Positions 23,423 to 50,771 of a stretch of DNA of 62,620 nt are shown here, piece after piece (within the stretch, counting starts at the first letter, position 1; each line of letters opens with the position of its first letter). The position numbers and the translations under genes are program-made. This DNA comes from Desulfuromonas sp. (GTDB lineage: Bacteria; Desulfobacterota; Desulfuromonadia; Desulfuromonadales; UBA2294): contig PKTZ01000109.1 of assembly GCA_002868925.1 (NCBI GenBank), positions 1-62,620 on the forward strand, in the 5' to 3' direction. A model generated the notes under the pieces. The model saw nothing but the letters and a program-made list of their open reading frames with translations. It was not told the origin of the DNA and did not search any database.

Positions 23423-23663
23423 ACCCACAAATCGTTTCATCTTATCAAGGGCGGTCCAGCATGGATCGCCTTTTTTATTGCCGCCATCCCCACCCCCACC
23501 CGAACCCTTTCGACAAAAAACAGAGAAACAGTAAAAACACACGGATTCACTTGCGAATCGGCAATTATGTGCCATAGTTTTTTACAGTGCTTTTTCCGTT
23601 TTTTCGGTTACAAGCTCCCCTTTGATTGTCATGTCATCCAGGCAAAATCGACAGGAGGAAAAA

Positions 23664-29600: not shown

Positions 29601-32600
29601 CTCAGCAACAGCGCCGGTTTTGTCCTCGACCCGGTCCTCTGCCTGCGCGAGACCGTCACCCTGGAACCGTCGCAAAAGGTTTCGCTAGCGATGACCATCG
29701 CTGCCGACGATGACCGGGACAAGGTCCTGGAGACGATCACCAAGTACCGGGACATCCATGCGATCAACCGGGCAATGGACTTTGCCTGGCGTGCCGCGCA
29801 GATCGAGCTGCGCCAGCTCCATATCCTTCCGGACGAGGCACGCCGCTTCCAGCAACTGGCCGACCACCTGATCTTCCCCAACACCCTGCTGCGTGCCCCG
29901 GCCGAGACCCTCGAGGAGAACCACAAGGGGCAGCAGGGTCTCTGGCCTTACGCCATCTCGGGCGACCTGCCGATCCTGCTCGTCTCGATCGAGGAGGCCC
30001 GCGACATCGGCTTGATCCGGCAACTGCTGCAGGCCCAGGCCTACTGGCGACGGCATGGCTTCCTCGCCGACCTGGTGATCCTCAACGAAGAGGGAGAGAG
30101 CTACGAGCAACCGTTGCGCGAACGGTTGGTCCACCTGATCCAGGCCCACTCGATGTACGTCGGCCGTGACCAGCCGAGCGGTATCTACCTGCGCAGCTCC
30201 GGGCAGATGCCGGAAGAGGACCTGCGCCTGCTCAAGGCAGCCGCCAGCGTTTTCATGGTCGCCGCCCGCGGCTCCCTATCGCAGCAGCTCGGAACGCCGC
30301 GACGCACCCCCGATCTGCCGAAAACGTTCCAACCGACATTTACCTGGGAGTACCCGTCCGAGCCGTTGCCGGAGATCGAACTGGTCCATCATAACGGCTA
30401 CGGCGGCTTCACCCCCGACGGGCGCGAGTACGTGATCGAACTTCCAGCGGGCAAGCAGACCCCTGCCCCCTGGGTCAACGTTATGGCGAACCCCGACTTC
30501 GGGGCGATGACGAGCGAAACCGGCGCCGGTTTCTCCTGGTTCGGCAACAGCCAGCGCAACCGGATCAACGGCTGGTCGAACGACACCGTGATCGATCCGC
30601 CGTCGGAGGCGATCTACATCCGCGACGAGGTCAGCGGCCGGTTCTGGACCGCCACCTCCGCCCCGGTCCGCAACCAGGAGCCTTATCGTTGCCGGCACGG
30701 TGCCGGCTACTCGATCTTCGAACACAACCACAGCGGTATCGACGCCGAGCTGACCCTGTTCGTTCCGGTCGACGAAGTAAACAGCCCGGTCAAGCTGCAA
30801 CGGCTCAGACTGCGCAACACGACCTCGCGGCGTCGCGCCCTGACCATCTCCTGGTATACCGAGCTGACCCTCGGCGAAAACCGGGAGAGTTCGCAGATGC
30901 ACGGCATGACCCACTGGGACAGTGAAACCAGCATCCTGCTCGCCCATAACCACTACCACCCTGACTACGGCGGCAAAACCACCTTTTTCGCCATGAGCCC
31001 GAAACCGACCGGCTACTGCGGCGACCGCACCATTTTTATCGGCCGCAACCGGTCGCTGCGCAACCCGCAGGCGCTGCAACGGACCGAGCTCGCGCAACTG
31101 GTCGGCGCCGGACTCGACCCCTGCGCCGCCCTGCAGACCAAGATCGACCTGGCGCCGGGTGAAGTCGAGGAGATCGTCTGTATTGTCGGCCAGGCCGACT
31201 CGATCGAGCAGGCGCGCCTGCTCGCCCGCTCCTTCCGCGACCACAGCAATGTCGATGCCGCCCTCAAGGCGACCTGCCGCTATTGGGACGACCTGCTCGG
31301 AACGATCGAGGTCGAGACCCCGGACCCGAGGGTCGATATTTTGGTCAATCGCTGGCTGCTTTACCAGTCGCTCAGTTGCCGCATCTGGGGCCGTTCCGCC
31401 TTCTACCAGTCGGGAGGCGCCTTCGGCTTCCGTGACCAGTTGCAGGATGTACTCGCCTTCCTGCTCACCAAACCGGAGCTGGCGAAAGAGCAGATCCGGC
31501 TCGCCGCCAGCCGTCAATTCAAGGAAGGGGATGTCCAGCACTGGTGGCATCCACCCGGCGGTGCCGGCATCCGTTCACGCATCTCCGACGACCTGCTCTG
31601 GCTCCCCTATGTCACCATCTACTACGTGCGGGCAACCGGCGATCTCGATATCCTGTCGGATGACGTCCCGTTCCTGACTGCCCCGGAGTTGGCCGAGGAT
31701 GAACACGAAGTCTTCGCCGTTCCGGAGGAGACCTTCGAGCGGGGTACCATCTTCGAACATTGCCGCCGCGCCGTCCACAAGGGGTTGACCGCCGGACCCG
31801 ACGGTCTGCCGCTGATCGGAACCGGCGACTGGAACGATGGCATGAACCTGGTCGGCGCCAAGGGGCGGGGTGAGAGCGTCTGGCTCGCCTGGTTCCTGGT
31901 CGATATCCTGCACGGCATGGCCGAACTATCCGACCTGCTCGGCAAGCCTGAGCTCGAGCAGGAGTACCGACAAAAACGTGCAACGCTGATCCGCCAGATC
32001 GAAGAAAAGGCCTGGGACGGCGCCTGGTACCGCCGGGGAACATTCGACGACGGCTCACCGCTCGGCTCGCGCCATAGTGATGAAGCGAAGATCGACTCGC
32101 TGCCCCAGTCCTGGGCCTGGCTGACCGGCGCCGGCGACCGGCAACGGGCCGAGCAGGCACTCGAGTCGGCCTGGGATCGGCTCTTCCTCGAAGAGGAGAG
32201 ACTGGTCCTTCTGTTCGAACCGCCATTCAACAAGTCGGCCCAGAACCCGGGCTACATCAAGGGCTATCCGCCCGGAGTCCGGGAGAACGGCGGTCAGTAC
32301 ACCCACGCCGCGCTCTGGTTCGCGATGGCGATGGCCCGCAGGGGGGACGGCAACCGCGCCGTCAAGATGCTGCAGGTCATGAGCCCGATGGAGCACGCCC
32401 GTGACCGGGAGGCAGCCGACCTGTACGGGCTCGAACCGTACGCCATCGCCGCCGACATCTATCGACTGCCCGACCGGACCGGCAAAGGGGGGTGGTCGTG
32501 GTACACCGGTTCGGCAGCCTGGACCTACCGGGCCTGGGTCGAAGAGATTCTCGGCCTGCACATCGCCCGGGGCAAACTTCATATCCGGCCGGTGATCCCG

Positions 32601-32795
32601 GAAATATGGAAGGAGTTCACCATCCGTTACCGGCATGACGGGGCAACCTTTGTTATCCACGTCAGGAACCCGGACGGGGTCATGCAGGGGGTTAAAGAGA
32701 TCACCATGAACGGCAACAGTCTCCCCGACAAAACAATTCCCCTAACCCAGAAACAGGGCGAGCATCGGATCGACGTCCTGATGGGGAAAGGTTAG
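23664..32795 (+). CDS. Cyclic beta-1,2-glucan synthase-like giant protein (NdvB/Cgs type: GT84 + GH94-like domains)
   Basis: 3,043 aa from GTG 23664 (AGGAGG 5 nt upstream; the track ORF starts at 23622). Multiple TM segments. GT-A motifs FIITLDSDTQLP, LSHDLIEG and RRWIRGDWQ. C-terminal GH94 phosphorylase-like region with GTGDWNDGMN. Confidence 0.85.
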   Translation: MPSGILISFFSKRSDARRSMWELGKHGFRRTAVLHRLPNGEIETTDFFTWTLLFGNILSSLIFALLAILIGLSGAFQLLTDGTPPLFILAIAGAVVGVVSGLALINRTRFGIERRILDRYGHCLMPGESALISQSPVETMKLPMALIRDKSESLPTIFVLHASREHRETTRSLEEPISDDQILERACKQARGHKEGQAKRVKPELLIRLKKEGAWFQEICVDLADACRLEQGVSPVAEWIIDNEFLVARSIRDVLVNLPKGYYRELPVRDQRYGKDLPCIYELAKELIFTHEARITAENIVNFVNSYQKVNTLSIAELWALPQMLRVALVESILDLAIRVHNDMRERQLATFWANRFIAANRRDSALVFSILGELDDRYPEPTPYFCSQLVNLLYDQDSILAPVENWIERKLGKATNAIELLEQKRQARDEILIENSFSSIRKLTQLDWRELFEQLAIVEKILRTDPQQVYAGMDFETRDRYRQTVKRFAERANKSEHDVAQLAIDLAVEHDCHIGEILIGSGKKRFESKLGCMDRPGIRLRERLKEAHSLVYLGSLAALFLPIVILTCRYAQSGKATCFDALFILLLLIPASQLAIEILNYLLTRLLSPLPLPKMDFEKSGIPDRFRTLVVIPTLLASEKAIRHEVEQLEIRFMANRDANLRYSLFTDFTDSAKQDQEDDEKLLQLAVNGIKELNRRYNTDIFFLFHRERSWCDTEQKYIGWERKRGKLEELNQLLDGSCPDSADRLVYAGNPERLDGIRFIITLDSDTQLPHGTARRMIETLSHPLNSPQLDAEGRINAGTYSILQPRVTPSLKSTSSSPFSQLFADAVGVDPYTKVVSDVYQDLTGEGSYHGKGIYDVKAFSKILSGNFPDGLILSHDLIEGAHVRTGLVSDIELFDEFPQDYLGYVTRMRRWIRGDWQIAAWVLPWVPKKGGGFRKNPISIFNRWKVFDNLRRSLLSTANLALLITAWLSSQQAAVAAMLLVGVEILFHPLSQVFTALTTRNGIRNFSSAIHLNHLQRALAEVAMMPHQAWISISAIMQSFYRLFISKRKLLEWTTAYVAHTTAMQKRKIFTFSLILASLSAAAIWASLARWMPGNLPLSYPWLLLWFASPFFGWLLTSRPIEKPLQELLAKRDLRYLRQVNRLTWRFFDDFVNENTSWLPPDNYQVSHQNQLAMRTSPTNIGFSMLSTLAASDSGYIPPDQTIDRLAHTVDTLEKVERYEGHLLNWYDIGNLQPLEPRYVSAVDSGNFLGALWALQQGLHEQYSGEVISGELFEGLRDSADILHQTISADPEFVEATKETERLLANLDRVPKRIVDRLQLLRLCEHDINGIDALISAIAPADSEPAYWSDKVLQEARHWRENADLYLEWIELLGHRQDDELARTAIRNIAEIADDLTFSPSLHNLSRGVAESIPILTLLSEHAYDEAATLSEWASKVLASFAKAQHNARMYRVRYEQLLSRLRKLAGEINLRFLFDKERKLFTIGYNVTSGHRDNSYYDLLASEARFGGFVAIARGDVPMEHWFTMGRPHAQIGRDRVLLSWTGTMFEYLMPQLFLRSYRYSLLDKAARDAIDVQIDYGRRNKIPWGISESAFGDLDFHKTYQYKAFGVPKLGLKRILEEQLVVSPYSTLMAVGIAPQETVDNLRNLDRLGMLNQYGFYESIDFRRKSKRGGRSGVMIKAYMSHHQGMGFIALANFLHNNLFQRRFHADPRVRAFEPLLQEKIPTLPPLQLTATRDRAPSLQEASSDIPASGIFETPNTSTPKSQMICNGRYDLLVTNTGGGYSKWNGQEITRWRSDRTNDQWGTYCYLHDLGEKDLWSSTFHPIDAESEDYIAEFALDRAIFRRSENGVQVETEVIVAPEDDIEIRRMTLTNRTSRRKRINLTSYVELSMADHAADRAHPAFNKLFIQTEAIEEERTLLAYRRLRSEDAEPLFVAHSFVNEKPGKGMWHFETDRSRFIGRGHTLADARGATGRLSNSAGFVLDPVLCLRETVTLEPSQKVSLAMTIAADDDRDKVLETITKYRDIHAINRAMDFAWRAAQIELRQLHILPDEARRFQQLADHLIFPNTLLRAPAETLEENHKGQQGLWPYAISGDLPILLVSIEEARDIGLIRQLLQAQAYWRRHGFLADLVILNEEGESYEQPLRERLVHLIQAHSMYVGRDQPSGIYLRSSGQMPEEDLRLLKAAASVFMVAARGSLSQQLGTPRRTPDLPKTFQPTFTWEYPSEPLPEIELVHHNGYGGFTPDGREYVIELPAGKQTPAPWVNVMANPDFGAMTSETGAGFSWFGNSQRNRINGWSNDTVIDPPSEAIYIRDEVSGRFWTATSAPVRNQEPYRCRHGAGYSIFEHNHSGIDAELTLFVPVDEVNSPVKLQRLRLRNTTSRRRALTISWYTELTLGENRESSQMHGMTHWDSETSILLAHNHYHPDYGGKTTFFAMSPKPTGYCGDRTIFIGRNRSLRNPQALQRTELAQLVGAGLDPCAALQTKIDLAPGEVEEIVCIVGQADSIEQARLLARSFRDHSNVDAALKATCRYWDDLLGTIEVETPDPRVDILVNRWLLYQSLSCRIWGRSAFYQSGGAFGFRDQLQDVLAFLLTKPELAKEQIRLAASRQFKEGDVQHWWHPPGGAGIRSRISDDLLWLPYVTIYYVRATGDLDILSDDVPFLTAPELAEDEHEVFAVPEETFERGTIFEHCRRAVHKGLTAGPDGLPLIGTGDWNDGMNLVGAKGRGESVWLAWFLVDILHGMAELSDLLGKPELEQEYRQKRATLIRQIEEKAWDGAWYRRGTFDDGSPLGSRHSDEAKIDSLPQSWAWLTGAGDRQRAEQALESAWDRLFLEEERLVLLFEPPFNKSAQNPGYIKGYPPGVRENGGQYTHAALWFAMAMARRGDGNRAVKMLQVMSPMEHARDREAADLYGLEPYAIAADIYRLPDRTGKGGWSWYTGSAAWTYRAWVEEILGLHIARGKLHIRPVIPEIWKEFTIRYRHDGATFVIHVRNPDGVMQGVKEITMNGNSLPDKTIPLTQKQGEHRIDVLMGKG

Positions 32796-32798: not shown

Positions 32799-34025
32799 AT
32801 GCCGAAGGGTACAGCGCGAAAACCTTTTCCGGGGCTGGCTCAAACCCGGGCCGATTACGAGAGGCAACTCCCCCTGTTCAAGGAGCGGCTGCACCACCTT
32901 GTGCAGGAGATCAGGCGGCAACTTGAAACGGCCGGGTTCACGCCGGCGATCAAGTACCGGGTCAAGCAGTTCGATGCCTATTTCGACAAGTTGCGCAAGA
33001 ATGACAACCAGGCGAAGGGGAGCAGGAGCCGGCCGATCGGAGACTTCTTCGCCCTGCGCATAATCTGTCCCTTCCTCGAGGATATCGACACCATCGAACG
33101 GCTGTTGACCACGAGTTTCCAGGTCGTCGAAACCGAACGTAAATCGAGTCATCACTCATTCCGGGAGTTCGGCTACGATTCGCTTCACCTGATGATCAAG
33201 CCGCCGCAGCGGTTGTACAGGTCCGCGCTGCCGGGAGTGCGCAACCTCTGCGAAGTGCAGCTCCGCACCATCCTCCAGGATGCCTGGGCCGAAGTCGAAC
33301 ATGAGCTGGTCTACAAATCGGACATCAACCTGCCGAAGGGATCGATCCGACGCAAGCTCGCTTCACTTAACGCCACGTTGACCCTCTCCGACCTCATCTT
33401 CCAGGAGATCCGCGATTACCAGAAAGAGCTGCGTCAGCACGGCCGCAAAAGACGTCAGTCGATCGCCGACCGCTCGCCCGAACTCGAACTGATCAACATC
33501 AGCGCTCCGCTCGACAACGGACCGAAACCGATCGCATCGACCCTGAAAAGCCGACTCGAGAAAACGATGCTTCGGGCCCTCGAGGCGCACAGCAACGACG
33601 ATCTGGAGACAGCGATCGAACTCTACGGGGTCATCCTCGGCATGAAACTCGAGAACAAGATGCGGGCGCTGATCTACAATCACCGCGGCATGGCTCATTT
33701 CGCCTGCAGCAACTTCAGGCAGGCGATGCACGACTTCAACCGCTCGATCCATTTCGACCCGGCCAGCGTGCGCAGCTACGCCAATCGCGGCCTCTGTCAC
33801 CGGGTCATGAAGCGCTTCAAGAAGGCGCTGGCCGACTTCGAAACGGCCATCGAAATCGAGCCGGGACGAACGGACCACTATTTCGGTCGGGCCCAGACCT
33901 ACTTCGACATGCAGCAGTTCGAGCAGGCGCAAATCGACTGCAACCGGATTCTGGAGCTGAGCCCCGGCGACCCTTCGGCGAAAGAGCTTCTGGCCAACAT
34001 CAAAACCAGGCTGGCGAAAATTTAA
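32799..34025 (+). CDS. RelA/SpoT-domain (small alarmone synthetase-like) protein fused to TPR repeats
   Basis: 408 aa. Synthetase motifs YRVKQFDAYFDKLRK, DFFALRI, GYDSLHLMI and EVQLRTILQDAWAEVEHELVYK. C-terminal approximately 130 aa are TPR-like (IYNHRGMAHFACSNFRQAMHDFNRSI..., YFGRAQTYFDMQQFEQA...). Starts 3 nt after the glucan synthase stop. Confidence 0.8.
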   Translation: MPKGTARKPFPGLAQTRADYERQLPLFKERLHHLVQEIRRQLETAGFTPAIKYRVKQFDAYFDKLRKNDNQAKGSRSRPIGDFFALRIICPFLEDIDTIERLLTTSFQVVETERKSSHHSFREFGYDSLHLMIKPPQRLYRSALPGVRNLCEVQLRTILQDAWAEVEHELVYKSDINLPKGSIRRKLASLNATLTLSDLIFQEIRDYQKELRQHGRKRRQSIADRSPELELINISAPLDNGPKPIASTLKSRLEKTMLRALEAHSNDDLETAIELYGVILGMKLENKMRALIYNHRGMAHFACSNFRQAMHDFNRSIHFDPASVRSYANRGLCHRVMKRFKKALADFETAIEIEPGRTDHYFGRAQTYFDMQQFEQAQIDCNRILELSPGDPSAKELLANIKTRLAKI

Positions 34026-34105
34026 TTTTTATCAGGCCACACCCTGATTGAATTCTGTTATCAATCCATGCCATAATAGAACGCTGTTTAATAACGAGGC
34101 GCTCT

Positions 34106-35542
34106 ATGTCGAAAAAAATCAGTATAGACCCGGTGACCCGGATTGAGGGGCACCTCGCCGTCGAAACCAAAATCGAGGCGGGCAAGGTGACGGACGCCCG
34201 GATCGCGGGCCAGATGTACCGGGGCTTTGAGAACCTGCTGCTCGGGCGCCACCCAATCGATGCCGCCCGCATCACTCAGCGAATCTGCGGCATCTGCCAC
34301 GAGGTTCACGGCATTGCCGCCAGCATGGCGCTCGAAAACCTCTACGGTCTGCAGCCGACCCAAAACGGGCTGATCCTGCGCGAGCTGATCCTCGGCCTGC
34401 ACCTCGTCACCGACCATATCTTCCATTTCTACCAGTTGACCCTCCCTGACTATGTCGACTTCGGCCGCCTGCAAAACTACCGGGGCGGTGACAGCCGGGT
34501 CAAAAAACTGGCCGGTATCTTCAACGGTTCAAACGTGTTCACATCCGGAATGATCACCGACAGCTTCGACGACACCGGCCTGACGGTCGAGATGGCGCTC
34601 GGTTACGCCGAGGCGATCAACATCCGCAAGCAGGCCGGCAGCGGCCTCGCCAGCCTCGGCGGCAAGGTCCCCTTCTGTCACACCATCCTGCCGGGCGGGC
34701 TCACCACCGACATCACCAGCGACCGGTTGATGAACTACGCCAACGCCTTAAGTGCTACGACCGACTTCATCCGCCGCTTCTATCTGCCGCAGGCGATCGA
34801 ACTGGCGCAACACTTCCGGCACTACTTCGAACTGGGGCAATCGCACGGCAACTTTTACGGCAACGGCGGCTTCAGCCTGAGCAAGAATCAGCTTTACAGT
34901 GGTGGCATCCTGCGGGCCGGAAAGCGTCCGGTGCGTACCCAGTTTGCCAAGATCAAGGAAACGGTCGAAGCGACTTACCTCGACCCGGACGGCACCCCAC
35001 GGGCGAAAAAAGAGGGCGCCTATTCCTGGGTCAAGGCGATGCATTACGACGGACTGCCGATGGAAGTCGGGCCGTTGGCCCGGCTGGCGGTCAACAACGA
35101 CCGCGAGTTCGCCGAGCTGCTCAAGCCGTTCAAACAGGAACCGACCCACTCCTCGGTCATGACCCGCATTCTCGCCCGGGCCCAGGAAGCCCTGAAAATC
35201 TGCTTCTACCTGCCGGAGCTCCTGCACCAGTACGACCTGCAGGGAGAGACCATCAACCCGCCGGACATGCTGGCCAAACCGACCGGCAACGGCCAGGGGA
35301 TGTCGCTCGCCGCCCGCGGCGCCCTTAATCATCAGGTCACCACCGAAAACGGGAAGGTGACCCGATACCGCCTCCAGGTCCCCTCGGCCTGGAATTTCGG
35401 CCCGACCGCCGGCGGGCATCGAGGGACGGTGGAGCAGGCTCTCATCGGAACCCCGGTCAATAAAAAAGATGGTGAGACGGCGATCGAAATTGGACGCATC
35501 GTGCGCAGCTTCGACCCCTGCCTCGCCTGCGCCATCCATTAA
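34106..35542 (+). CDS. [NiFe] hydrogenase large subunit (no C-terminal extension; group-2/sensory-like)
   Basis: 478 aa. N-terminal DPVTRIEGHL and RICGICHEVH, and C-terminal DPCLACAIH, which is immediately followed by the stop codon. Confidence 0.9.
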   Translation: MSKKISIDPVTRIEGHLAVETKIEAGKVTDARIAGQMYRGFENLLLGRHPIDAARITQRICGICHEVHGIAASMALENLYGLQPTQNGLILRELILGLHLVTDHIFHFYQLTLPDYVDFGRLQNYRGGDSRVKKLAGIFNGSNVFTSGMITDSFDDTGLTVEMALGYAEAINIRKQAGSGLASLGGKVPFCHTILPGGLTTDITSDRLMNYANALSATTDFIRRFYLPQAIELAQHFRHYFELGQSHGNFYGNGGFSLSKNQLYSGGILRAGKRPVRTQFAKIKETVEATYLDPDGTPRAKKEGAYSWVKAMHYDGLPMEVGPLARLAVNNDREFAELLKPFKQEPTHSSVMTRILARAQEALKICFYLPELLHQYDLQGETINPPDMLAKPTGNGQGMSLAARGALNHQVTTENGKVTRYRLQVPSAWNFGPTAGGHRGTVEQALIGTPVNKKDGETAIEIGRIVRSFDPCLACAIH

Positions 35543-35551
35543 AGGAACAAC

Positions 35552-36508
35552 ATGCTGACACGCCGTGAATTCATAAAACGTTGCCGCGACATATCACTGT
35601 TGATGTGCGGGCAGACACTGCTCACCAGGCAGCTGGCGCACGGCTTCCTGCAACTTGCCAAAGCGCCGCCGTCAATCGCCTTTGTCCATGCCCAGAACTG
35701 CATGGGCTGTACAACCTCGATGATGTACGGCAACGACTTCGACTTCCTCGACTTTCTCGGCTCCGTCGGCAACCTCGACATCCATCCCGCCCTCTCTTTC
35801 AACCAGGGGGGGGAATACCTGGCGCGGCTCGATGCCATCTGCAAGGAGGGGAACCACCTGCTGGTGGTCGAAGGGAGCATTCCCTCCGACCCACCGGAAG
35901 CCTGTCTGCTCGGCGACAGGCCGATCTATGACGTTCTTGCCGACTGCGCACAGAAGGCCAAAATGGTTATCTGTTCCGGCTCCTGTGCCAGCCACGGCGG
36001 CATCCCCGCTTCGGGCGGTAACCAGACCGGCGCCCTTTCGGTCGGCGCTTATCTCGAGCAGAAAAAAATCAAGGTCCCGCTGCTGCAGGTCCCGGGCTGC
36101 CCGGTCCACCCCGACCACCTGATGGGGAGTATCGCCTATATCACCGCCACCGGGAAGCTGCCGCCGCTGAAGAAGGAAACGCGCCTGCCGGAGGAATATT
36201 TCGGCGAGCTGCTGCACAACCGCTGCAGCCGCTACCAGCACTTCTCCCAGGACAAGTTCGTCAATAATTACGCCAAGGACAAGAATGACTGTCTGCTCAA
36301 AAAAGGATGCCGTGGCCCGGTAACCGCGAGCGACTGCCCGGTGCGGCGCTGGAACAAGAGGACCAGTGTCTGCGTCGAGAGCAACACTCCCTGTATCGGC
36401 TGCATGAACTCCCACTGGCCGTTCAAAAGCGACCTCTACCTGGAGACGGCGGAGGTCGAAGACCTCCCCTGGTCACAGATGAAGCAAAAGACCAACAGTC
36501 GGCGCTAA
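35552..36508 (+). CDS. [NiFe] hydrogenase small subunit with twin-arginine-like N-terminus
   Basis: 318 aa. MLTRREFIK... N-terminus. Proximal cluster ligands NCMGC, GSCASHGG and PGCPVHPDH. C-terminal Cys/His set for the medial and distal clusters (HNRC, DCLLKKGCRGP, DCP, VCVESNTPCIGC). Confidence 0.9.
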   Translation: MLTRREFIKRCRDISLLMCGQTLLTRQLAHGFLQLAKAPPSIAFVHAQNCMGCTTSMMYGNDFDFLDFLGSVGNLDIHPALSFNQGGEYLARLDAICKEGNHLLVVEGSIPSDPPEACLLGDRPIYDVLADCAQKAKMVICSGSCASHGGIPASGGNQTGALSVGAYLEQKKIKVPLLQVPGCPVHPDHLMGSIAYITATGKLPPLKKETRLPEEYFGELLHNRCSRYQHFSQDKFVNNYAKDKNDCLLKKGCRGPVTASDCPVRRWNKRTSVCVESNTPCIGCMNSHWPFKSDLYLETAEVEDLPWSQMKQKTNSRR

Positions 36509-36514
36509 GTTAAC

Positions 36515-38242
36515 ATGATGAAATTCTGGAAATACCGGACAGCCAAATATTTTTATATGGTGGCAGGCGCTATTCTGCTGCTGATGGTGATTTCCATCCT
36601 GACCGACGCACTGCAATCACGCCAGGTCAAAAAATCGTTTACCACCTACATGAACAACCTGCGCGACATGGTCTTCATGTCGACTTACGATTCCCTGAAA
36701 AAAGGGAATATGCGGGTCTTCAAGAACCACCTCGAGGAGATCGGCACCTTCAACGATGTCGAGGAGTTCTCTCTGATCGACACCAAGGGCTTTGTCCGCT
36801 ATTCCTCCGACCCGTTACTGGTCAAGCAGGCCGATCCCCGCGTCATCGACCTGACCGCACAACAGGAGTTGTCGGCCAACGGCTTTTCGACCTATTATTT
36901 CCCGGTCGAAACCACCAGCTACTGTTCTCGCTGCCACTTCGACTGGGAGATCGGCTCGATCAACTCCTACTACCGGTTGACCCTGAGCCGGCAGGCGCTC
37001 GACGCGGTTCAAAAGAGTACCCTCTACTACCACGCCTTCACCGTTATTGGCTGCGCTGTCCTGATCGCCTTCATCTACCTGCTGTTCATGATCTACGAAC
37101 GGAAGAAGAACGAAGAGCAGATGCTGCTCTCGGCCAGTGTCCGCAACTTCATGGATGCGACCGCCGAACCGTTTCTGATCATCGATGCCAACGGCACCTG
37201 TATCTTCTGCAACCAGGCCGGCCTGAACCAGCTGGGGCACGATACCACCAGCACCCTGCTCGGCAGGGATTTCTACAAAACCATCCAGCACTCCGATGAA
37301 GACGGCAGCCCCTTCCCGGAAGAGAAACGACTCGGCAGAAGCGCCCTGCAGCAAGGGGTTTCAGAAGTCGTCAACGAGGCGCTGCTCTGGCGGGCCGACG
37401 GCGGCAGTTTCGTCGCCGAGTGCCGAGTGCACCCGATCATCAAGAACGGCATCGTCTCCGGGGCAACGATCAACTTCTTCGACGTCACCGAAAAGAAAAA
37501 AGAAGAGCTGCGGACCATGCATATCTCGCATCTCGCCTCCCTCGGCGAACTGGCGGCCGGGGTCGCCCACGAGATCAACAATCCGATCAACGGCGTCATC
37601 AACTACGCCCAGATCTTCAAGAACCGCTTCAAACCGGAAGAAGAAGGTTCACAGATGCTCGATCGGATCATCAAGGAGGGGAACCGGATCGCCAAGATCG
37701 TGTTCAGCCTTCTGCACTACGCCCACCAGGGCGAAGAGAAGATGGGCGCCGTTAACTTCAGCCAGGTCATCAGCGAAACGATGAACCTGTTCCAGACTCA
37801 GCTCAACCGGGATGGGATTCACCTCGAACTCGACGTCGATGAAAAGGTACCGGTCGTTATCGGCCGTTTCCAGGACCTCGAGCAGATGCTGATGAACCTG
37901 ATCAGCAATGCCCGCTACGCTCTCAATAAGAAATTCCCCGAGACCGGAGATCCGGGCAAGCTGCTCTGCATCGGTTTGGAGAACTTCGAACATGATGAGT
38001 GGCCGCACATCCGTCTGACCGTCCTCGACAAGGGGACCGGTATCGAGAAGGAGATGCTGAACAAGGTTTTCAACCCATTCCTCACCACCAAACCGGCCGG
38101 TGACGGCACCGGGCTCGGCCTGCATGTCTGCTTCAGCATCATCAAGCAGCATGACGGAAAAATCGACATCGACAGTGAACCGGGCAACTTCACCCGGGTC
38201 ACTGTCGATTTTCCGATCGCCGACCGCGGTTCAAAACAGTAG
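36515..38242 (+). CDS. Membrane sensor histidine kinase with periplasmic CxxCH (c-heme) loop, cytoplasmic PAS, HisKA and HATPase_c
   Basis: 575 aa. TM1 at about aa 12-32 and TM2 at about aa 175-197. CSRCH sits in the loop between them. PAS (EPFLIIDANGTCIFCNQAG...), H-box VAHEINNPING, and G-boxes DKGTGI and GTGLGL. Confidence 0.85.
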   Translation: MMKFWKYRTAKYFYMVAGAILLLMVISILTDALQSRQVKKSFTTYMNNLRDMVFMSTYDSLKKGNMRVFKNHLEEIGTFNDVEEFSLIDTKGFVRYSSDPLLVKQADPRVIDLTAQQELSANGFSTYYFPVETTSYCSRCHFDWEIGSINSYYRLTLSRQALDAVQKSTLYYHAFTVIGCAVLIAFIYLLFMIYERKKNEEQMLLSASVRNFMDATAEPFLIIDANGTCIFCNQAGLNQLGHDTTSTLLGRDFYKTIQHSDEDGSPFPEEKRLGRSALQQGVSEVVNEALLWRADGGSFVAECRVHPIIKNGIVSGATINFFDVTEKKKEELRTMHISHLASLGELAAGVAHEINNPINGVINYAQIFKNRFKPEEEGSQMLDRIIKEGNRIAKIVFSLLHYAHQGEEKMGAVNFSQVISETMNLFQTQLNRDGIHLELDVDEKVPVVIGRFQDLEQMLMNLISNARYALNKKFPETGDPGKLLCIGLENFEHDEWPHIRLTVLDKGTGIEKEMLNKVFNPFLTTKPAGDGTGLGLHVCFSIIKQHDGKIDIDSEPGNFTRVTVDFPIADRGSKQ

Positions 38243-38287
38243 CTCTCTCGCATCATTGATTTGTTTTCTATAAGTTAAAGATCGAAA

Positions 38288-38754
38288 CCGTCGGGTCCCG
38301 ACCCGACAGCCGGCGTCATTTTCTTTGTCGGCGTGACAATGAAAACGAAGCAAAAGAAAACACGCGCCTGGCGGCGAGCACTGCATTCTCGGGTGACGCT
38401 GCCGTTTTTCAACGATACTACCAATCTCGTGTGTTGCGTCTTTGTGGCTCTCCAGCTTGAAGTGGGCTGCGTCGATCAACGATGTTAATGGTTTAGGCAG
38501 TATTGATTTTGATTTCGGTTTTGCTTTTCGCCCCGTGGCGGAGCGCCGAGAGAGCATGGATGAAAACCGAAACAGCAGCAAAAACTGTTTGAGGACATAA
38601 GAGCCACAGGCTCTGGAGGACGAGTTTTTTTGCTGCCGGTTTTCATCTGTGCGAACGAGGGAACAGCGCAGGGTCGGGGCGCAGCTCTTTTCTGCGTACT
38701 CTTTTGGAGCGTTGCCAAAAGAGTACGGCGGAGTGTGAGGCCGCGACCTCACGG
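38288..38754. mobile_element. MITE-like repeat, copy B (variant interior)
   Basis: The left approximately 190 bp aligns with copies A and C (CCGTCGGGTCCCGACCCGACAGCCGGCGTCATTTTCTTTGTCGGCGTGACAATGAAAACG...). The right end GTGTGAGGCCGCGACCTCACGG matches the right TIR. The interior differs but holds a hairpin at the equivalent place (GTACTCTTTTGG-N7-CCAAAAGAGTAC). Confidence 0.6.
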
Positions 38755-38798
38755 TTTTCCTTTTCTATCTCTCTAAAAATCCAAGATCAAGGACAGAA

Positions 38799-39287
38799 CC
38801 GTCGGGTCCCGGCCCGAAAGCCGGCGTCATTTTCTTTGTCAGCGTGACAAAAGAAAACGAAGCAAAAGAAAACACGCACCTGGCGGTGGGCACTGCATTC
38901 GCGGTTGACGTTGCCGCTTTTCAACGATAGTACAAATCTCGCAAGCAGCGTCTCCGTGGCTTTCGAACTTGAAACGGGCTACGAAGATCGACTGATCATC
39001 GTAACTCCAGCGTTATTGTTTCTGGTTTTCCACCTGAAGCTTTTAAGGTGCGTCTGTCAGCGCACTTCCTTGAACGCAGCGCGGCCGCGAAAACCACGAA
39101 GACGAACCCTAATCGCCTCAAGGCGATCTCCTACCCATCGAAATCACAAAAGAGGCAAATAGACCGAACAAAAAAGCCCCCTGCAAGGGAGCCATTTCTT
39201 TGGTTCGTTTTTCTTCGGGGACACTTCCCGAAGTTCAGGGAAGTGTCCCCATCTGAAACCCAGCGTGTGGAGCCGGGACCCCACGAC
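38799..39287. mobile_element. MITE-like repeat, copy C
   Basis: 489 bp between the outer ends of the TIRs, the same span as copy A (6217-6705). Both ends and the GGGGACACTTCCC-N8-GGGAAGTGTCCCC hairpin are conserved. Lies 44 bp from copy B. Confidence 0.65.
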
Positions 39288-40122: not shown

Positions 40123-41073
40123 TCAGGCAATCGCCTTGGCGGATTTCTGCATTTCCCCGAGCATAGCCTTGATCGCCTTCGGCCCGGCCACCATCTTCGC
40201 CGCCTTCGACAGGTCGGACAGCAGCTTGTCGAGCAGCGCTTCATTCCAGTCGGCCTCCTCGGGGATATGACGTTCCATCTCCTTGTCGACCAGCTGCACG
40301 CCGATACGGCCGATATGTTTCTCGGCCGTTGTGCGCAACATCGACTGCAACTGTATGCGCCGCTGCTTCTGGGCCATCTCGCGGTTGCGGCTTTCGACCT
40401 TCTGCTTGCTCTGCTTGTCCTTGACCAGCAGCTCCTGCGCTTTTTTCCAGAGCGCCGAGAGATCGGCCGAGGCCATCAGGTCGGCGAGCTCGATGTCATC
40501 GGCACCGCCGGAGCTGAGCACGTCGATCTTGGCGCCGGGCAGCTTGGCCACCGACATCGAGGCGTCGGCCGAGGTTTCGATATCGGTCGAGCCGTCATGG
40601 AAAAATCCGAGCGGGGTGCCGTCCTTGTAGAAAATCAGGGCGATCTTTTCGTCGGTATAAATTCGCAGGCAGCCGCTCATCTTGTCGGCCTTGAATTTGC
40701 CGAGCAGCGACTTGATATCGATCAGCTTCAGCTCCTGCCCCTTGTACAGGGTGTCACCGTGCAGCAGGGCATGAATACTCATCGCCAGTTCAGTCGAAAG
40801 CTTGTAGATATCAAGGGTCATCCGACCGGCGAGGGAGAGTTCGAAGATCCGGGCGATCGCGTCGTAGGCGATAAGTCGCTCGCTCCCCTCCTCGTAGAGG
40901 GCGCTGATCAGCTTGCCGGAGCTGAAAATAATAACCCCGGTGCCGTTGGCGGCTTCAAAGCGGAGGTACCCGGTAAAGCTCCCTTTTTGCAGCTTTCCCA
41001 ACGCCTCCGGCAGGTTGATTTTGCCGGGGTTCACCTTCTCCCGGACCGGGTTTCCACGTGGTAAAAGAATCAT
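40123..41073 (-). CDS. Hypothetical protein with two PATAN/DUF4388-like modules and a C-terminal coiled coil
   Basis: Two repeats of the pattern G.L.....G.I.F..G....A (GSFTGYLRFEAANGTGVIIFSSGKLISALYEE; MSGCLRIYTDEKIALIFYKDGTPLGFFHDG). The start is uncertain: ATG at 41073, or the TTG at 41127 used by the track. Confidence 0.45.
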   Translation of the reverse strand: MILLPRGNPVREKVNPGKINLPEALGKLQKGSFTGYLRFEAANGTGVIIFSSGKLISALYEEGSERLIAYDAIARIFELSLAGRMTLDIYKLSTELAMSIHALLHGDTLYKGQELKLIDIKSLLGKFKADKMSGCLRIYTDEKIALIFYKDGTPLGFFHDGSTDIETSADASMSVAKLPGAKIDVLSSGGADDIELADLMASADLSALWKKAQELLVKDKQSKQKVESRNREMAQKQRRIQLQSMLRTTAEKHIGRIGVQLVDKEMERHIPEEADWNEALLDKLLSDLSKAAKMVAGPKAIKAMLGEMQKSAKAIA

Positions 41074-41201
41074 GATTCCACTTCTTGTAAAACGGGGCAG
41101 TCTGCCCCGGAAAAGACATTTATTCAAACATGGGAGTTTTATATGAAACCCGGTGGCATGTCAATGTTCATATCTCATTTCCCGCACCGTTTTCGGCCCG
41201 A

Positions 41202-47938: not shown

Positions 47939-48087
47939 GTCTGGATCGTGCCTAAGGACTGTACCTTTCACTTCTCTTTCACCGCATACTAAAAATCCTT
48001 AGATAATATAAGAATGTGCTCTAAGTTGAACTGCCTCGGGAACGAGGCATTGCTCTCGCGCAAGAACCTCATCCAGAAGGTTGCGCC

Positions 48088-48552
48088 TCAGCTATATATT
48101 TTCAATTTCAGGGTTTGTAGCAACTCGCTTGGGAACTCCCATGACCAAACTGAGCTCATCGCGTCCGGCTCACTCCAGGCGGGGTCTGCCTCAAGTTTCT
48201 CCAAACTCCTGCAAAATGTTTTTATCATTTTTGAACCCTCACATTGATGTTGAAGCAAAGGCTCATTCTCTTCAGCAGATGCGACGACAAGATCTATTTC
48301 ATTATTGACGCTCTTAAAAGTCCATTCTACCCATGCGGGTTCAAGTGACCACGCTACAACACCCTCTATACTTCCTGCGAATAAATCCAACAGGACTTTG
48401 ACCAACTCATACAGTGAATTGCAAGGAACGTCCGAAACCTCAAGCTCAATGTCATACTCAGATGAAGACAGTTCTATTGCCAGCCAGCCATGATCTGGAG
48501 TGCCAAATTGAAGAGTTAAATCATCCATTTTCCCCATTGAGATGTTCTTCAT
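48088..48552 (-). CDS. Hypothetical acidic cytoplasmic protein
   Basis: 154 aa with AT-rich codon usage and no signal peptide. No family recognised. Confidence 0.45.
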   Translation of the reverse strand: MKNISMGKMDDLTLQFGTPDHGWLAIELSSSEYDIELEVSDVPCNSLYELVKVLLDLFAGSIEGVVAWSLEPAWVEWTFKSVNNEIDLVVASAEENEPLLQHQCEGSKMIKTFCRSLEKLEADPAWSEPDAMSSVWSWEFPSELLQTLKLKIYS

Positions 48553-48662
48553 TTATTGAGAATCTAACGTCTCTTGTGTTGTCCTATTTTATAACTTTCT
48601 TTATGCCCTAAGTTTTACCAAACCACCGACTAAACATTTCTGCGACCGGATTCTTTCAGTGA

Positions 48663-49433: not shown

Positions 49434-49449
49434 TTCAAAACCTTTCGTA

Positions 49450-49483
49450 TGAAAAAAGCCAACCATATAGACATGGATGGCTT
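49450..49483 (-). terminator. Expression-platform terminator of riboswitch copy 1
   Basis: Minus strand AAGCCATCCAT-GTCT-ATATGGTTGGCTT followed by TTTTTTC, about 20 nt after the aptamer. Confidence 0.75.
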
Positions 49484-49502
49484 TGAATTCTGTTTAGCTC
49501 CC

Positions 49503-50584: not shown

Positions 50585-50593
50585 TGTAAAACA

Positions 50594-50641: not shown

Positions 50642-50650
50642 ATTATAAAA

Positions 50651-50680: not shown

Positions 50681-50771
50681 TTATATATCTACTATTGTTA
50701 ATCAGAGGTTGAATTGCCCCCTGTTTTGATGTTTCCTATAAATCCTGCAATTCAAAAGAGAATAAAGCCCC

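What the first reader, a model, noticed from the sequence alone, without database searches (positions are those of the whole stretch)
34106..38242. Sensory-type [NiFe] hydrogenase (large subunit first, no maturation peptide, Tat-like small subunit) operonic with a kinase carrying a periplasmic c-heme motif
**Seen in sequence**
- The gene order is large subunit, small subunit, kinase, with 9- and 6-nt gaps. The usual order is small subunit then large subunit.
- The large subunit is short (478 aa). It terminates exactly at the second Ni-binding motif, DPCLACAIH-stop. It therefore lacks the C-terminal peptide removed by the maturation endopeptidase.
- The small subunit begins MLTRREFIK, an exact twin-arginine consensus. 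The following segment (RCRDISLLMCGQTLLTRQLAHG) is only weakly hydrophobic, and there are about 45 residues before the first CxxC.
- The kinase has two TM helices bracketing an approximately 140-aa loop that contains CSRCH. A cytoplasmic PAS and the HisKA/HATPase core follow.
- No response regulator, hyp maturation genes, endopeptidase or cytochrome b partner lies nearby.

**Established knowledge**
- H2-sensing regulatory hydrogenases (HoxBC/HupUV) lack the C-terminal peptide, lack Tat signals and bind a cytoplasmic kinase (HoxJ/HupT).
- Geobacter sensors such as GSU0582 and GSU0935 use periplasmic PAS-like domains with covalently bound c-heme.

**Inference**
- This locus may be an H2-sensing module of a different design. 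One possibility is a Tat-exported sensory hydrogenase that reduces the c-heme of the kinase in the periplasm. The other is a cytoplasmic sensor with a vestigial RR motif paired with an independent redox-sensing kinase.
- Either arrangement would differ from the characterised HoxBC-HoxJ paradigm.
Basis: partly seen in the sequence, partly recalled or inferred. Interest (0 to 1): 0.8.

Follow-up and report, generated by a model that had tools for sequence, protein, structure and literature searches.

The report
Periplasmic hydrogen-sensing hydrogenase with heme receptor
This three-gene operon most likely encodes a hydrogenase exported to the periplasm that reports the presence of H2 by reducing a heme on a membrane sensor kinase; the same module is found in many bacterial phyla wired to chemotaxis receptors or c-di-GMP enzymes, and I found no description of it in the literature I could search.

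Summary

- **The module.** It is large subunit (no C-terminal extension), then Tat-signal small subunit, then a membrane receptor. The receptor's periplasmic domain carries an invariant Met and CxxCH.
- **How widespread.** The receptor lies directly behind a hydrogenase pair in 27 of 29 close loci. It does so in 62 of 71 loci of a homologous wider family. These span Desulfuromonadales, Deferribacteres, Thermodesulfobacteria, Aquificota, Desulfobacterales, Verrucomicrobiota, Planctomycetota, Magnetococcales and others.
- **What varies.** Only the cytoplasmic output changes: histidine kinase (this window), chemotaxis receptor (most loci), GGDEF or GGDEF-EAL.
- **Large subunits.** All 82 sensor-linked large subunits checked end at the Ni-binding His. 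One basal relative, P0094, keeps a 6-residue tail.
- **Conventional neighbour.** The one conventional relative whose locus was examined has a C-terminal extension, small-then-large order and an adjacent endopeptidase.
- **Classification.** The enzyme groups with periplasmic group 1a/[NiFeSe]-type hydrogenases, not with HoxBC (group 2b).
- **The sensor.** It is a divergent heme-c single-Cache domain like GSU0935.

The most likely mechanism is H2 oxidation in the periplasm, electron transfer to the receptor heme, a Met ligand switch and transmembrane signalling. All of this is inferred from sequence. The literature library I searched holds no description of it.

The parts
34048..34077 (+). Sigma-70-like promoter match (TTGAAT-18-CATAAT, with a TG extension) 29 nt upstream of the large-subunit start
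   Evidence: Consensus scan only. It fits a self-contained three-gene operon, because flanking genes are not conserved in other loci. This is weak evidence.
34106..35542 (+). [NiFe] hydrogenase large subunit, 478 aa. L1 motif RICGICHEVH lies at 34280-34309 and L2 motif DPCLACAIH-stop at 35513-35542. There is no C-terminal maturation peptide.
   Evidence: Pfam NiFeSe_Hases matches at 3.5e-81. The best NCBIfam model is NiFeSe_hydrog at 410 bits, below its 600 cut-off. The best solved structure is the D. vulgaris [NiFeSe] hydrogenase. It falls in a monophyletic clade without extensions.
35552..36508 (+). [NiFe] hydrogenase small subunit, 318 aa. All 12 Fe-S ligands are present and the medial cluster has four Cys. 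There is no membrane anchor. A conserved C-terminal tail reads WPF..LYLE...EDLPWS.MK.
   Evidence: Pfam Oxidored_q6 and NiFe_hyd_SSU_C match. It aligns with 2wpn_A from residue 2. Motifs are and tails.
35552..35638 (+). Predicted twin-arginine signal peptide (MLTRREFIKRCRDISLLMCGQTLLTRQLA), with possible cleavage after LA
   Evidence: It aligns with the signal peptide of the periplasmic D. vulgaris HysB. The RR motif is present in all clade members. RR-to-CxxC spacing is 46-48 aa, against 47 in HysB and 44 in HybO. Hydropathy is in the range of proven Tat signals, and HoxB has no such motif. The cleavage site is a guess.
36515..38242 (+). Membrane sensor histidine kinase, 575 aa: TM1, periplasmic heme sensor, TM2, PAS (37139-37492), HisKA (from 37541), HATPase_c (to about 38218)
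   Evidence: Pfam domains and hydropathy with the positive-inside rule.
36614..37030 (+). Periplasmic sensor domain (residues 34-172), predicted single-Cache/PDC fold carrying c-type heme
   Evidence: AlphaFold2 model with pLDDT 76.6. Foldseek matches WalK, DctB, KinD, CitA and GSU0935/GSU0582 sensor domains. hhalign links it to the wider CxxCH sensor family at 99.8% probability.
36698..36712 (+). Invariant KKGNM motif. Met66 is the candidate distal heme ligand.
   Evidence: It is invariant in alignment A1. The Met is also kept in the wider family as RGEM. GSU0935 uses Met60 in this role (PMC8396549). The ligand role here is inferred.
36923..36937 (+). CSRCH heme-c attachment motif (Cys137, Cys140, His141)
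   Evidence: CxxCH is present in all full sensor sequences of the close family and in nearly all of the best 150 database clusters. It lies between predicted strands 125-132 and 149-157, as in sCache_heme domains (PMC12889525).

Best explanation
This is a dedicated periplasmic H2 sensor. Steps 1, 2 and 4 are supported by sequence comparison. Step 3 and the physical contact between hydrogenase and receptor are inferred.

1. **Assembly and export.** The large subunit receives its NiFe cofactor in the cytoplasm without the usual endopeptidase step. It pairs with the small subunit, and the dimer is exported by the Tat pathway through the small subunit's twin-arginine signal.
2. **Partner.** In the periplasm the soluble, anchor-less hydrogenase works with the receptor encoded immediately downstream. 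That receptor's periplasmic single-Cache domain carries a covalently bound c-type heme (Cys137, Cys140, His141).
3. **Signal.** When H2 is present, the enzyme oxidises it and passes electrons along its three Fe-S clusters to the receptor heme. Reduction lets the invariant Met66 bind the iron, as in the Geobacter sensor GSU0935. This shifts the helices that continue into the membrane.
4. **Output.** The change reaches the cytoplasmic output module.
   - Here that module is a PAS-histidine kinase that would phosphorylate an unlinked response regulator.
   - In most other lineages the same input is wired to a chemotaxis receptor, which would give H2 taxis.
   - In a few it is wired to c-di-GMP enzymes.
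For: **Conserved triad**
- The large-small-receptor order is kept in all 5 closest loci.
- It is kept in 27 of 29 loci found by searching with the sensor domain alone.
- In the homologous wider family, 62 of 71 loci with enough upstream DNA have a small-subunit gene directly upstream of the receptor, and 61 of those also have the large subunit.
- Flanking genes are not conserved.

**Same sensor, different outputs**
- HK occurs in Desulfuromonadales.
- HAMP-MCP occurs in Denitrovibrio, Seleniivibrio, Thermosulfurimonas, Aquificota and Desulfobulbus.
- PAS-GGDEF and PAS-GGDEF-EAL also occur.

**Large subunit**
- All 28 window-type and 54 wider-type large subunits stop at the Ni-binding His.
- The conventional relative P0113 has a 15-aa extension, small-then-large order and an adjacent HycI endopeptidase.

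**Tat signal**
- The twin-arginine motif and its spacing are conserved in every clade small subunit.
- The signals are canonical in the wider family.
- The window's N-terminus aligns with the signal peptide of periplasmic HysB.

**Sensor**
- Met and CxxCH are invariant.
- The predicted fold is Cache, with CxxCH between beta3 and beta4.
- GSU0935 has Met60/Cys140/Cys143/His144, binds Met on reduction and has Em -251 mV, which is reachable from H2.

**One hydrogenase per receptor**
- Genomes with two receptors have two complete triads. Their three proteins diverge in parallel at 42-57% identity.
- In the four Seleniivibrio and UBA6793 copies, all three proteins of each copy are closest to the orthologous triad in the other genome.
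- In Denitrovibrio BM701 the nearest neighbours disagree between the three proteins.

**Catalytic residues and clusters**
- All catalytic motifs and Fe-S ligands are intact.
Against: - There is no experimental evidence of any kind: export, heme loading, complex formation and H2 response are all untested.
- Nine of 71 wider-family receptors and two of 29 close-family receptors have no adjacent hydrogenase. The sensor domain may therefore also work alone as a general redox or gas sensor.
- The enzyme keeps a full catalytic and electron-transfer apparatus, so it could also feed the periplasmic cytochrome pool.
- No cognate response regulator is linked in this window.
- The window's signal peptide has Arg-Asp inside the h-region and Gln at position -3, both suboptimal.
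- The trees are neighbour-joining only. The relation between the two sensor-linked clades is unresolved, at 33% support.
- No Tat predictor or complex model could be run.
Confidence: 0.65

Rival explanations
1. It is an ordinary energy-conserving periplasmic uptake hydrogenase (group 1a-like). It would reduce soluble periplasmic cytochromes for respiration. The neighbouring heme receptor would sense periplasmic redox state on its own and merely regulate or accompany it.
For: - The closest sequence and structure matches are respiratory [NiFeSe]/[NiFe] enzymes.
- Catalytic motifs and the full Fe-S chain are intact.
- Some sensor-domain proteins occur without a hydrogenase.
- GSU0582 and GSU0935 are proposed to be stand-alone redox sensors.
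Against: - The extension and the endopeptidase gene are lost exactly in the sensor-linked clades, while the conventional relative examined keeps both.
- Every locus table examined for the sensor-linked operons shows only the three genes, with no cytochrome c3, Hmc or HybAB-type partner inside the operon.
- The receptor is retained next to the enzyme across many phyla while its output domain changes.
- Each extra receptor comes with its own hydrogenase pair.
Confidence: 0.13
2. The primary signal is a gas ligand such as NO, CO or O2 bound at the receptor's ferrous heme. The hydrogenase would be an accessory reductase that uses H2 to keep or reset the heme in the ferrous, ligand-competent state. 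The output would then integrate H2 and the gas.
For: - sCache_heme domains from Pseudomonas bind NO (PMC12889525).
- GSU0582 and GSU0935 bind CO and NO, which displace the Met ligand.
- The heme pocket residues are strongly conserved.
Against: - A dedicated two-subunit metalloenzyme per receptor is costly for a housekeeping reductase. These bacteria have abundant periplasmic reductants.
- Most sCache_heme receptors described so far function without a hydrogenase.
- Nothing in the loci points to NO or CO metabolism.
Confidence: 0.12
3. It is a cytoplasmic regulatory hydrogenase of the HoxBC type with a vestigial twin-arginine motif. The kinase would be an independent periplasmic redox sensor.
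For: - The large subunit lacks the extension, like HoxC.
- A kinase gene follows, as on pHG1.
- The window's h-region contains Arg-Asp.
Against: - The RR motif, h-region and 46-48-aa spacing are kept in all clade members across phyla, and are canonical with AxA sites in the wider family.
- HoxB has none of these and starts its first cluster near residue 27.
- Identity to HoxC is 29.8%, against 38.3% to the periplasmic [NiFeSe] enzyme, and the trees place it with group 1.
- The conserved partner domain is periplasmic, and c-heme attachment is a periplasmic process.
Confidence: 0.04

Closest known systems
Regulatory H2-sensing [NiFe] hydrogenase HoxBC-HoxJ of Cupriavidus necator (HupUV-HupT; HydDB group 2b)
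   Same: - A two-subunit [NiFe] hydrogenase serves as a sensor and is encoded next to a histidine kinase.
- The large subunit ends at the Ni-binding His with no extension.
- There is no adjacent endopeptidase.
   Different: - HoxB has no Tat signal and the complex is cytoplasmic.
- The gene order is small then large.
- HoxJ is a soluble kinase without a heme domain.
- Only 29.8% of residues are identical, and it sits on a separate deep branch.
- The present family also couples to chemotaxis receptors and c-di-GMP enzymes.
Periplasmic [NiFeSe]/[NiFe] hydrogenases of sulfate reducers (D. vulgaris HysAB; HydDB group 1a)
   Same: - They are the best sequence and structure matches.
- The Tat signal is homologous.
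- The dimer is soluble, with no anchor.
- The medial cluster has four Cys.
- The natural electron acceptor is a periplasmic c-type heme protein (established knowledge).
   Different: - Here Cys replaces Sec.
- The large subunit has no C-terminal extension and there is no endopeptidase.
- The large-subunit gene comes first.
- The downstream gene is a signalling receptor.
- The scores fall below the NCBIfam family cut-offs: 410 against 600, and 188 against 470.
[quoted passage not shown]
   Same: - The domain lies between two TM helices.
- The predicted fold is Cache/PDC, with CxxCH between beta3 and beta4.
- A Met on the N-terminal helical part sits at nearly the same position: Met66/Cys137/Cys140/His141 here, against Met60/Cys140/Cys143/His144 in GSU0935.
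- The domain is fused to MCP, HK or GGDEF/EAL outputs.
   Different: - There is no significant sequence match to the Pfam models or to 3B42/3B47. Only distant relatives touch PF21563, and below its cut-off.
- The papers read here (PMC8396549, PMC12889525) mention no hydrogenase partner for the known members, whereas this family is almost always encoded behind one.
[FeFe] hydrogenase group C2, 'chemotactic (putative)', and [NiFe] group 2c, 'diguanylate cyclase-linked (putative)', in HydDB
   Same: The idea is the same: a hydrogenase linked to MCP or c-di-GMP signalling as a putative H2 sensor.
   Different: - Those are cytoplasmic enzymes of other lineages.
- The group 2c L2 motif is SFDxCLVCTVH, against SFDPCLACAIH here.
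- None involves a periplasmic heme receptor.

Membership tests
HydDB group 2b regulatory hydrogenase (HoxBC/HupUV) | Large subunit lacks the C-terminal maturation peptide | tested here: met
   The window large subunit ends DPCLACAIH-stop. HoxC ends DPCMVCTVH.
HydDB group 2b regulatory hydrogenase (HoxBC/HupUV) | Small subunit without a Tat signal; cytoplasmic enzyme | tested here: not met
   The window has MLTRREFIK plus an h-region, with its first cluster 46 aa downstream. HoxB has no RR motif.
HydDB group 2b regulatory hydrogenase (HoxBC/HupUV) | Phylogenetic affiliation with group 2 large subunits | tested here: not met
   Identity to HoxC is 29.8%, against 38.3% to the D. vulgaris [NiFeSe] enzyme. 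It groups with group 1 sequences in neighbour-joining trees. The group 2a Huc structure scores 131 bits, against 262 for [NiFeSe].
HydDB group 2b regulatory hydrogenase (HoxBC/HupUV) | Soluble PAS-kinase partner (HoxJ/HupT) bound in the cytoplasm | tested here: not met
   The partner here is a two-TM receptor with a periplasmic sensor domain.
HydDB group 1a periplasmic [NiFe]/[NiFeSe] hydrogenase | Closest sequence similarity of both subunits | tested here: met
   NCBIfam NiFeSe_hydrog, HysA and NiFeSe small-subunit models are the top hits, all below their cut-offs. The top PDB hits are 5jsu_B and 2wpn_A. The HydDB classifier itself could not be run.
HydDB group 1a periplasmic [NiFe]/[NiFeSe] hydrogenase | Twin-arginine signal on the small subunit | tested here: met
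   The motif, spacing and hydropathy are comparable to HysB, HybO, HyaA and HoxK. Export itself is not testable here.
HydDB group 1a periplasmic [NiFe]/[NiFeSe] hydrogenase | Large-subunit precursor with a C-terminal extension removed by a specific endopeptidase | tested here: not met
   No extension is present in 28 of 28 window-type and 54 of 54 wider-type large subunits. No endopeptidase gene lies near. The conventional relative P0113 has both.
HydDB group 1a periplasmic [NiFe]/[NiFeSe] hydrogenase | Respiratory role, donating electrons to the cytochrome c3 pool | not testable with these tools
   The locus tables show only the three genes in each sensor-linked operon, with no cytochrome gene inside. 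Function needs experiments.
sCache_heme (DUF3365/Tll0287/GSU0582-type heme-c sensor domain) | Extracytoplasmic domain flanked by two TM helices | tested here: met
   Hydrophobic segments lie at 9-35 and 169-196. The N-terminus carries four positive charges, and RKK follows TM2.
sCache_heme (DUF3365/Tll0287/GSU0582-type heme-c sensor domain) | Single Cache/PDC fold | tested here: met
   The AlphaFold2 model has pLDDT 76.6. Foldseek finds WalK, DctB, KinD and CitA at E 6e-6 to 1e-3, and 3b42 and 3b47 lower in the list. Model confidence is moderate.
sCache_heme (DUF3365/Tll0287/GSU0582-type heme-c sensor domain) | Conserved CXXCH on an insertion between beta3 and beta4 | tested here: met
   CSRCH at 137-141 lies between predicted strands 125-132 and 149-157. 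It is conserved family-wide. The family definition comes from PMC12889525.
sCache_heme (DUF3365/Tll0287/GSU0582-type heme-c sensor domain) | Significant match to the family's sequence models (PF11845, PF21563) | tested here: inconclusive
   The window domain does not hit them. A profile of the family finds no PDB member. The relatives P0199 and P0165 hit PF21563 at 24.3 and 16.7 bits, below the cut-off of 27.
sCache_heme (DUF3365/Tll0287/GSU0582-type heme-c sensor domain) | Covalently bound c-type heme | not testable with these tools
   This needs a heme stain, spectroscopy or mass spectrometry of the expressed domain.
HydDB group 2c (diguanylate cyclase-linked, putative) | L2 motif SFDxCLVCTVH; cytosolic; hupS then hupL order | tested here: not met
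   L2 here is SFDPCLACAIH, a Tat signal is present and the large subunit comes first.

The most novel reading that the evidence does not exclude
This may be a previously unclassified functional class of [NiFe] hydrogenase: periplasmic, Tat-exported, endopeptidase-independent sensory enzymes. Each would be paired with its own heme-c Cache receptor.

This class would give bacteria in at least eight phyla direct H2 chemotaxis, H2-responsive two-component signalling and H2-responsive c-di-GMP control. It would supply the first molecular H2 chemoreceptor. It would also be the first case of a redox enzyme handing electrons to a signalling heme as the sensing event.
Probability: 0.55. Interest if true: 0.9.

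Novelty: new variant of a known kind. Interest (0 to 1): 0.85.

Why it matters
- **H2 sensing.** H2 is a central currency of anaerobic communities. The only characterised H2 sensor is the cytoplasmic HoxBC/HupUV-kinase system of aerobic H2 oxidisers.
- **H2 taxis.** Taxis towards H2 has been shown in Methanococcus (PMC3817446), and none of the papers retrieved here names a receptor for it. If this module works as proposed, it supplies a candidate receptor. It also shows that many anaerobes, among them sulfate and metal reducers, Deferribacteres, Verrucomicrobiota and Planctomycetota, read H2 in the periplasm.
- **Genome surveys.** Hydrogenase surveys that file these genes as respiratory group 1a enzymes would overestimate H2-respiring capacity.
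- **Maturation.** The family is a natural example of a Tat-exported [NiFe] hydrogenase matured without a C-terminal extension. This bears on the proposed checkpoint role of that peptide.
- **Testability.** The system can be tested in cultured strains such as Denitrovibrio acetiphilus DSM 12809 and Seleniivibrio woodruffii.

Tried and rejected
- **Sensor loop against Pfam and PDB by sequence.** A Pfam scan and a PDB sequence search of the sensor loop alone gave nothing useful. A family profile against PDB also found nothing. The link to known heme sensors therefore rests on fold, motif position and bridging relatives.
- **Word-index protein searches with the sensor.** Two searches returned only 3 and 6 fragments. 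The exhaustive representatives search was needed instead.
- **HydDB group 2c.** Rejected on the L2 motif.
- **Pseudogene or truncation.** Rejected because the His-stop end and intact ORFs recur in 82 large subunits.
- **Apparent large-small subunit fusions.** Three cases in L053, L109 and L122 were an artefact of my ORF extension. Each has a stop right after the His.
- **Mirror-tree correlation.** It is high (r = 0.85-0.95) but is largely explained by shared species history. I rely only on the paralogue comparison.
- **Failed runs.**
  - The first bootstrap tree timed out and was redone with faster code.
  - One locus search failed for lack of conserved columns and was repeated with closer sequences.
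- **Conserved neighbours.** A search for a linked response regulator or an alarmone synthetase found none.
- **Literature.** Ten searches found no description of this module. The nearest items are a neighbourhood table listing MCP and EAL genes near [NiFe] large subunits without interpretation (PMC12727194) and the HydDB class list.

Full report
**1. The observation**

They are 34106-35542 (478 aa), 35552-36508 (318 aa) and 36515-38242 (575 aa), all on the + strand, separated by 9 and 6 nt.

- **First protein.** Pfam identifies a [NiFe] hydrogenase large subunit (NiFeSe_Hases, 3.5e-81).
- **Second protein.** It is a small subunit (Oxidored_q6 plus NiFe_hyd_SSU_C).
- **Third protein.** It is a PAS-HisKA-HATPase_c kinase.
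- **Large-subunit motifs.** It carries RIEGH, RICGICHEVH and ARGALNH, and ends DPCLACAIH-stop.
- **Small subunit.** It begins MLTRREFIK and its first CxxC is at residue 50.
- **Kinase topology.** It has two hydrophobic segments (about 9-35 and 169-196) around a loop of about 138 residues with CSRCH at 137-141. Four positive charges lie at the N-terminus and RKK follows the second segment, so the loop faces the periplasm.
- **Neighbourhood.** I found no hyp gene, endopeptidase, cytochrome b or receiver domain within +/-10 kb or among 20 further window ORFs.
- **Organism.** An EF-G-family protein encoded in the window is 91% identical to one from a Desulfuromonadales MAG. The window is part of a 169-kb metagenome contig.

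**2. What the hydrogenase is related to**

- **Large subunit, family models.** The best NCBIfam models are the [NiFeSe]-type family (410 bits, cut-off 600) and HysA (330 bits). They score far above Hyd-2 (210) and Hyd-1 (157).
- **Large subunit, solved structures.** The best are the D. vulgaris and Desulfomicrobium [NiFeSe] enzymes (262 and 228 bits). The group 2a Huc enzyme scores 131 bits.
- **Small subunit.** It aligns with the D. vulgaris [NiFeSe] small subunit from residue 2, that is, through that protein's own Tat signal. All 12 cluster ligands are kept, including a fourth Cys at the medial cluster.
- **Direct comparison.** I fetched HoxB, HoxC and HoxG from pHG1 and HyaAB and HybOC from E. 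coli. The window large subunit is 29.8% identical to the regulatory HoxC and 38.3% identical to the [NiFeSe] enzyme.

This is therefore not a group 2b sensor. It is derived from periplasmic group 1a-like enzymes.

**3. The three genes travel together**

- **Closest relatives.** All five closest loci are Desulfuromonadales MAGs with 63-71% large-subunit identity. They keep the large-small-kinase order, the His-stop end, the MLTRRxF start and CxRCH in the kinase loop.
- **Same sensor on a different protein.** In Denitrovibrio acetiphilus DSM 12809 and Thermosulfurimonas sp. F29, the gene after the hydrogenase pair is not a kinase. It is a methyl-accepting chemotaxis protein with the same periplasmic domain.
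- **Invariant residues.** An alignment of eight such domains has invariant D..L.KGNM, EFSL, PV.T..YC.RCH..W..G.
- **Search with the domain alone.** It found 29 species-level genome loci. In 27 of them the large and small subunit genes lie directly upstream.
- **Outputs in these loci**:
  - PAS-HisKA-HATPase in Desulfuromonadales and Geobacteraceae;
  - HAMP-MCP in Deferribacteres, Thermodesulfobacteria, Aquificota and Desulfobulbus;
  - PAS-GGDEF and PAS-GGDEF-EAL in Denitrovibrio-like genomes.
- **Flanks.** The genes on either side of the triad are not shared between the window and any other locus.

**4. A much larger family**

- **Database size.** An exhaustive profile search found 588 protein clusters at E < 0.001. 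About 30 have the [KR]KGNM motif. A larger set has RGEM and CIRCH at position about 149.
- **Homology.** The two sets are clearly homologous: hhalign gives 99.8% probability and E 8e-29, with Met and CxxCH aligned.
- **Loci.** Searching genomes with the wider set returned 80 loci. They come from Desulfobacterales, other Thermodesulfobacteriota, Omnitrophota, Verrucomicrobiota, Planctomycetota, Magnetococcales and others.
- **Adjacency.** Of the 71 loci with at least 1.2 kb upstream, 62 have a small-subunit gene immediately upstream. Sixty-one of those also have the large subunit before it.
- **Outputs.** Seventy are chemotaxis receptors and four are kinases.
- **Large subunits.** All 54 complete ones end at DPCxACAVH-stop.
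- **Small subunits.** The three small-subunit N-termini I printed carry textbook Tat signals with AxA sites.

**5. The contrast with conventional relatives**

- **Extensions.** The next-nearest database relatives of the window enzyme (P0090, P0098, P0110, P0113; 38-39% identity) carry 14-15-residue C-terminal extensions.
- **Conventional locus.** The P0113 locus has the order small subunit, large subunit, HycI endopeptidase.
- **Trees.** In neighbour-joining trees the window-type clade is monophyletic (77% and 100% bootstrap in two data sets). The wider sensor-linked enzymes cluster with these conventional enzymes at 93%.
- **What the trees do not resolve.** Whether the sensor association arose once or twice is open, with 33% support at the deep node.
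- **Basal relative.** P0094, also followed by a sensor-MCP, keeps a 6-residue tail.

Loss of the extension, loss of the endopeptidase gene, large-subunit-first order and the downstream receptor therefore go together.

**6. Export**

- **Motif and spacing.** Every small subunit with an intact N-terminus in the window-type clade has RRxF. The distance to the first cluster Cys, scored in 23 of them, is 46-48 residues. It is 47 in HysB and 44 in HybO.
- **Hydropathy.** The best 12-residue hydropathy after the motif is 1.0-2.1, the same range as HoxK (1.02), HyaA (1.35), HybO (1.76) and HysB (1.35).
- **Cytoplasmic control.** HoxB has no RR motif.
- **Anchor.** The small subunits have no C-terminal membrane anchor, unlike HybO and HoxK. 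The window-type clade has a conserved tail, WPF..LYLE...EDLPWS.MK.
- **Limit.** I could not run a Tat predictor.

**7. The sensor domain**

- **Model.** An AlphaFold2 model (pLDDT 76.6) shows a long N-terminal helix, a second helix, a five-stranded sheet and the exit helix. CxxCH lies between strands 125-132 and 149-157.
- **Structural matches.** Foldseek finds extracytoplasmic Cache/PDC sensor domains first: WalK, DctB, KinD and CitA, at E 6e-6 to 1e-3. The Geobacter heme sensors 3B42 and 3B47 appear lower in the list.
- **Family definition.** A 2026 preprint defines the sCache_heme family (DUF3365/Tll0287/GSU0582) by exactly this feature, CXXCH on an insertion between beta3 and beta4. It does not mention hydrogenases (PMC12889525).
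- **GSU0935 as a model** (PMC8396549):
  - The heme is attached at Cys140 and Cys143 with His144.
  - Met60 binds on reduction and leaves on oxidation.
  - The midpoint potentials are -156 mV for GSU0582 and -251 mV for GSU0935.
- **Correspondence.** The window kinase has Met66, Cys137, Cys140 and His141.
- **Limit.** Sequence models do not connect the families directly. Distant relatives touch PF21563 below its cut-off.

**8. One hydrogenase per receptor**

Several genomes carry two triads: Seleniivibrio woodruffii, UBA6793 and Denitrovibrio BM701.

- **Divergence within a genome.** The copies are 42-51% (large subunit), 53-57% (small subunit) and 46-47% (sensor) identical.
- **Nearest neighbours.** In the four Seleniivibrio and UBA6793 copies, all three proteins of each copy are closest to the orthologous triad in the other genome. 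For the two BM701 copies the nearest neighbours differ between the three proteins.

In those two genomes the triad duplicated and diverged as a unit. This is expected for specific partners, not for a general periplasmic reductase.

**9. Mechanism and its status**

- **Shown by sequence comparison:** a catalytically complete group 1a-like [NiFe] hydrogenase; a conserved Tat signal; no extension and no endopeptidase; a conserved periplasmic Met/CxxCH Cache domain encoded next to it; interchangeable outputs.
- **Inferred:** Tat export; heme loading; direct electron transfer from the distal cluster to the receptor heme; a Met66 ligand switch; transmission to the kinase.
- **Unknown:** the response regulator and its regulon, and what re-oxidises the heme.
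- **Maturation is not an obstacle.** Work on the C. necator membrane-bound enzyme reports that the extension is not essential for cofactor insertion (PMC7294309; title and abstract seen).

**10. Comparison with what is known, and novelty**

HydDB lists these sensory classes: [NiFe] 2b (kinase-linked), [NiFe] 2c (diguanylate cyclase-linked, putative), and [FeFe] C1-C3, including a putative chemotactic class. It has no periplasmic group 1 sensory class. Ten literature searches found no description of this module. One paper tabulates MCP and EAL genes among the neighbours of [NiFe] large subunits without comment.

I rate this a new variant of a known kind. Sensory hydrogenases, group 1a enzymes and heme-Cache sensors are each known. 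Their combination, the compartment and the proposed sensing event are not.

**11. Verdict**

My confidence in the sensory-module explanation is 0.65. I score interest at 0.85 because the system is widespread, unclassified and directly testable in cultured strains.

Noticed in passing
window 38272-38480 and 38783-38992: A direct repeat of about 210 nt sits in the non-coding stretch just downstream of the kinase gene. It has two copies at 82-87% identity, spaced 511-512 nt apart. A sub-threshold Rfam Trp_leader hit at 39168-39257 on the minus strand is probably chance (31.6 bits against a gathering score of 41).
   Followed up: partly
window 48000-60000: G+C drops to 41-48%, against 52-64% in the rest of the window. 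This could be a foreign island. The ORFs there that I scanned gave few Pfam hits: NAGPA and an ABC substrate-binding protein.
   Followed up: partly
window 23622-32795 and 32799-34025: A 3057-aa GH94/glycoamylase protein (cyclic beta-1,2-glucan synthase-like) lies upstream. It is followed by a 408-aa RelA_SpoT small alarmone synthetase fused to TPR repeats, immediately upstream of the hydrogenase operon. Neither is conserved next to the triad elsewhere.
   Followed up: partly
L008 9477-10418; also L030 and L033 small subunits: In the Thermodesulfobacteria-type small subunits, the first proximal-cluster motif is C-x-G-D instead of C-x-x-C (GQACSGD). An Asp therefore stands where the second Cys ligand should be.
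   Followed up: no
L041 8001-12221 (P0094): This large-small-MCP triad has a large subunit with a 6-residue tail (VIEAKA) after the Ni-binding His. It branches near the base of the window-type clade and may be an intermediate in the loss of the extension.
   Followed up: partly
L018 5869-8547 and L032 3388-4146; also L049, L061, L062, L076, L089, L095, L101, L102 and L104: These sensor-domain proteins have no hydrogenase genes directly upstream, although enough upstream DNA is present to see one. L018 is a PAS-GGDEF-EAL protein in Denitrovibrio BM704 and L032 is a 252-aa HAMP-only protein. Nine wider-family receptors are in the same position. They may use a hydrogenase encoded elsewhere or sense redox state alone.
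   Followed up: partly
window 40123-41127 (-): A 334-aa protein with a weak DUF4388/PatA_N (PATAN) domain hit lies 1.9 kb downstream of the kinase. It has no receiver domain, so it is not an obvious partner for the kinase.
   Followed up: no
window 35552-36508, C-terminal 38 residues of the small subunit: The tail WPF..LYLE...EDLPWS.MK is conserved in the window-type clade. The wider family and conventional enzymes lack it. It may be a docking element for the receptor.
   Followed up: partly
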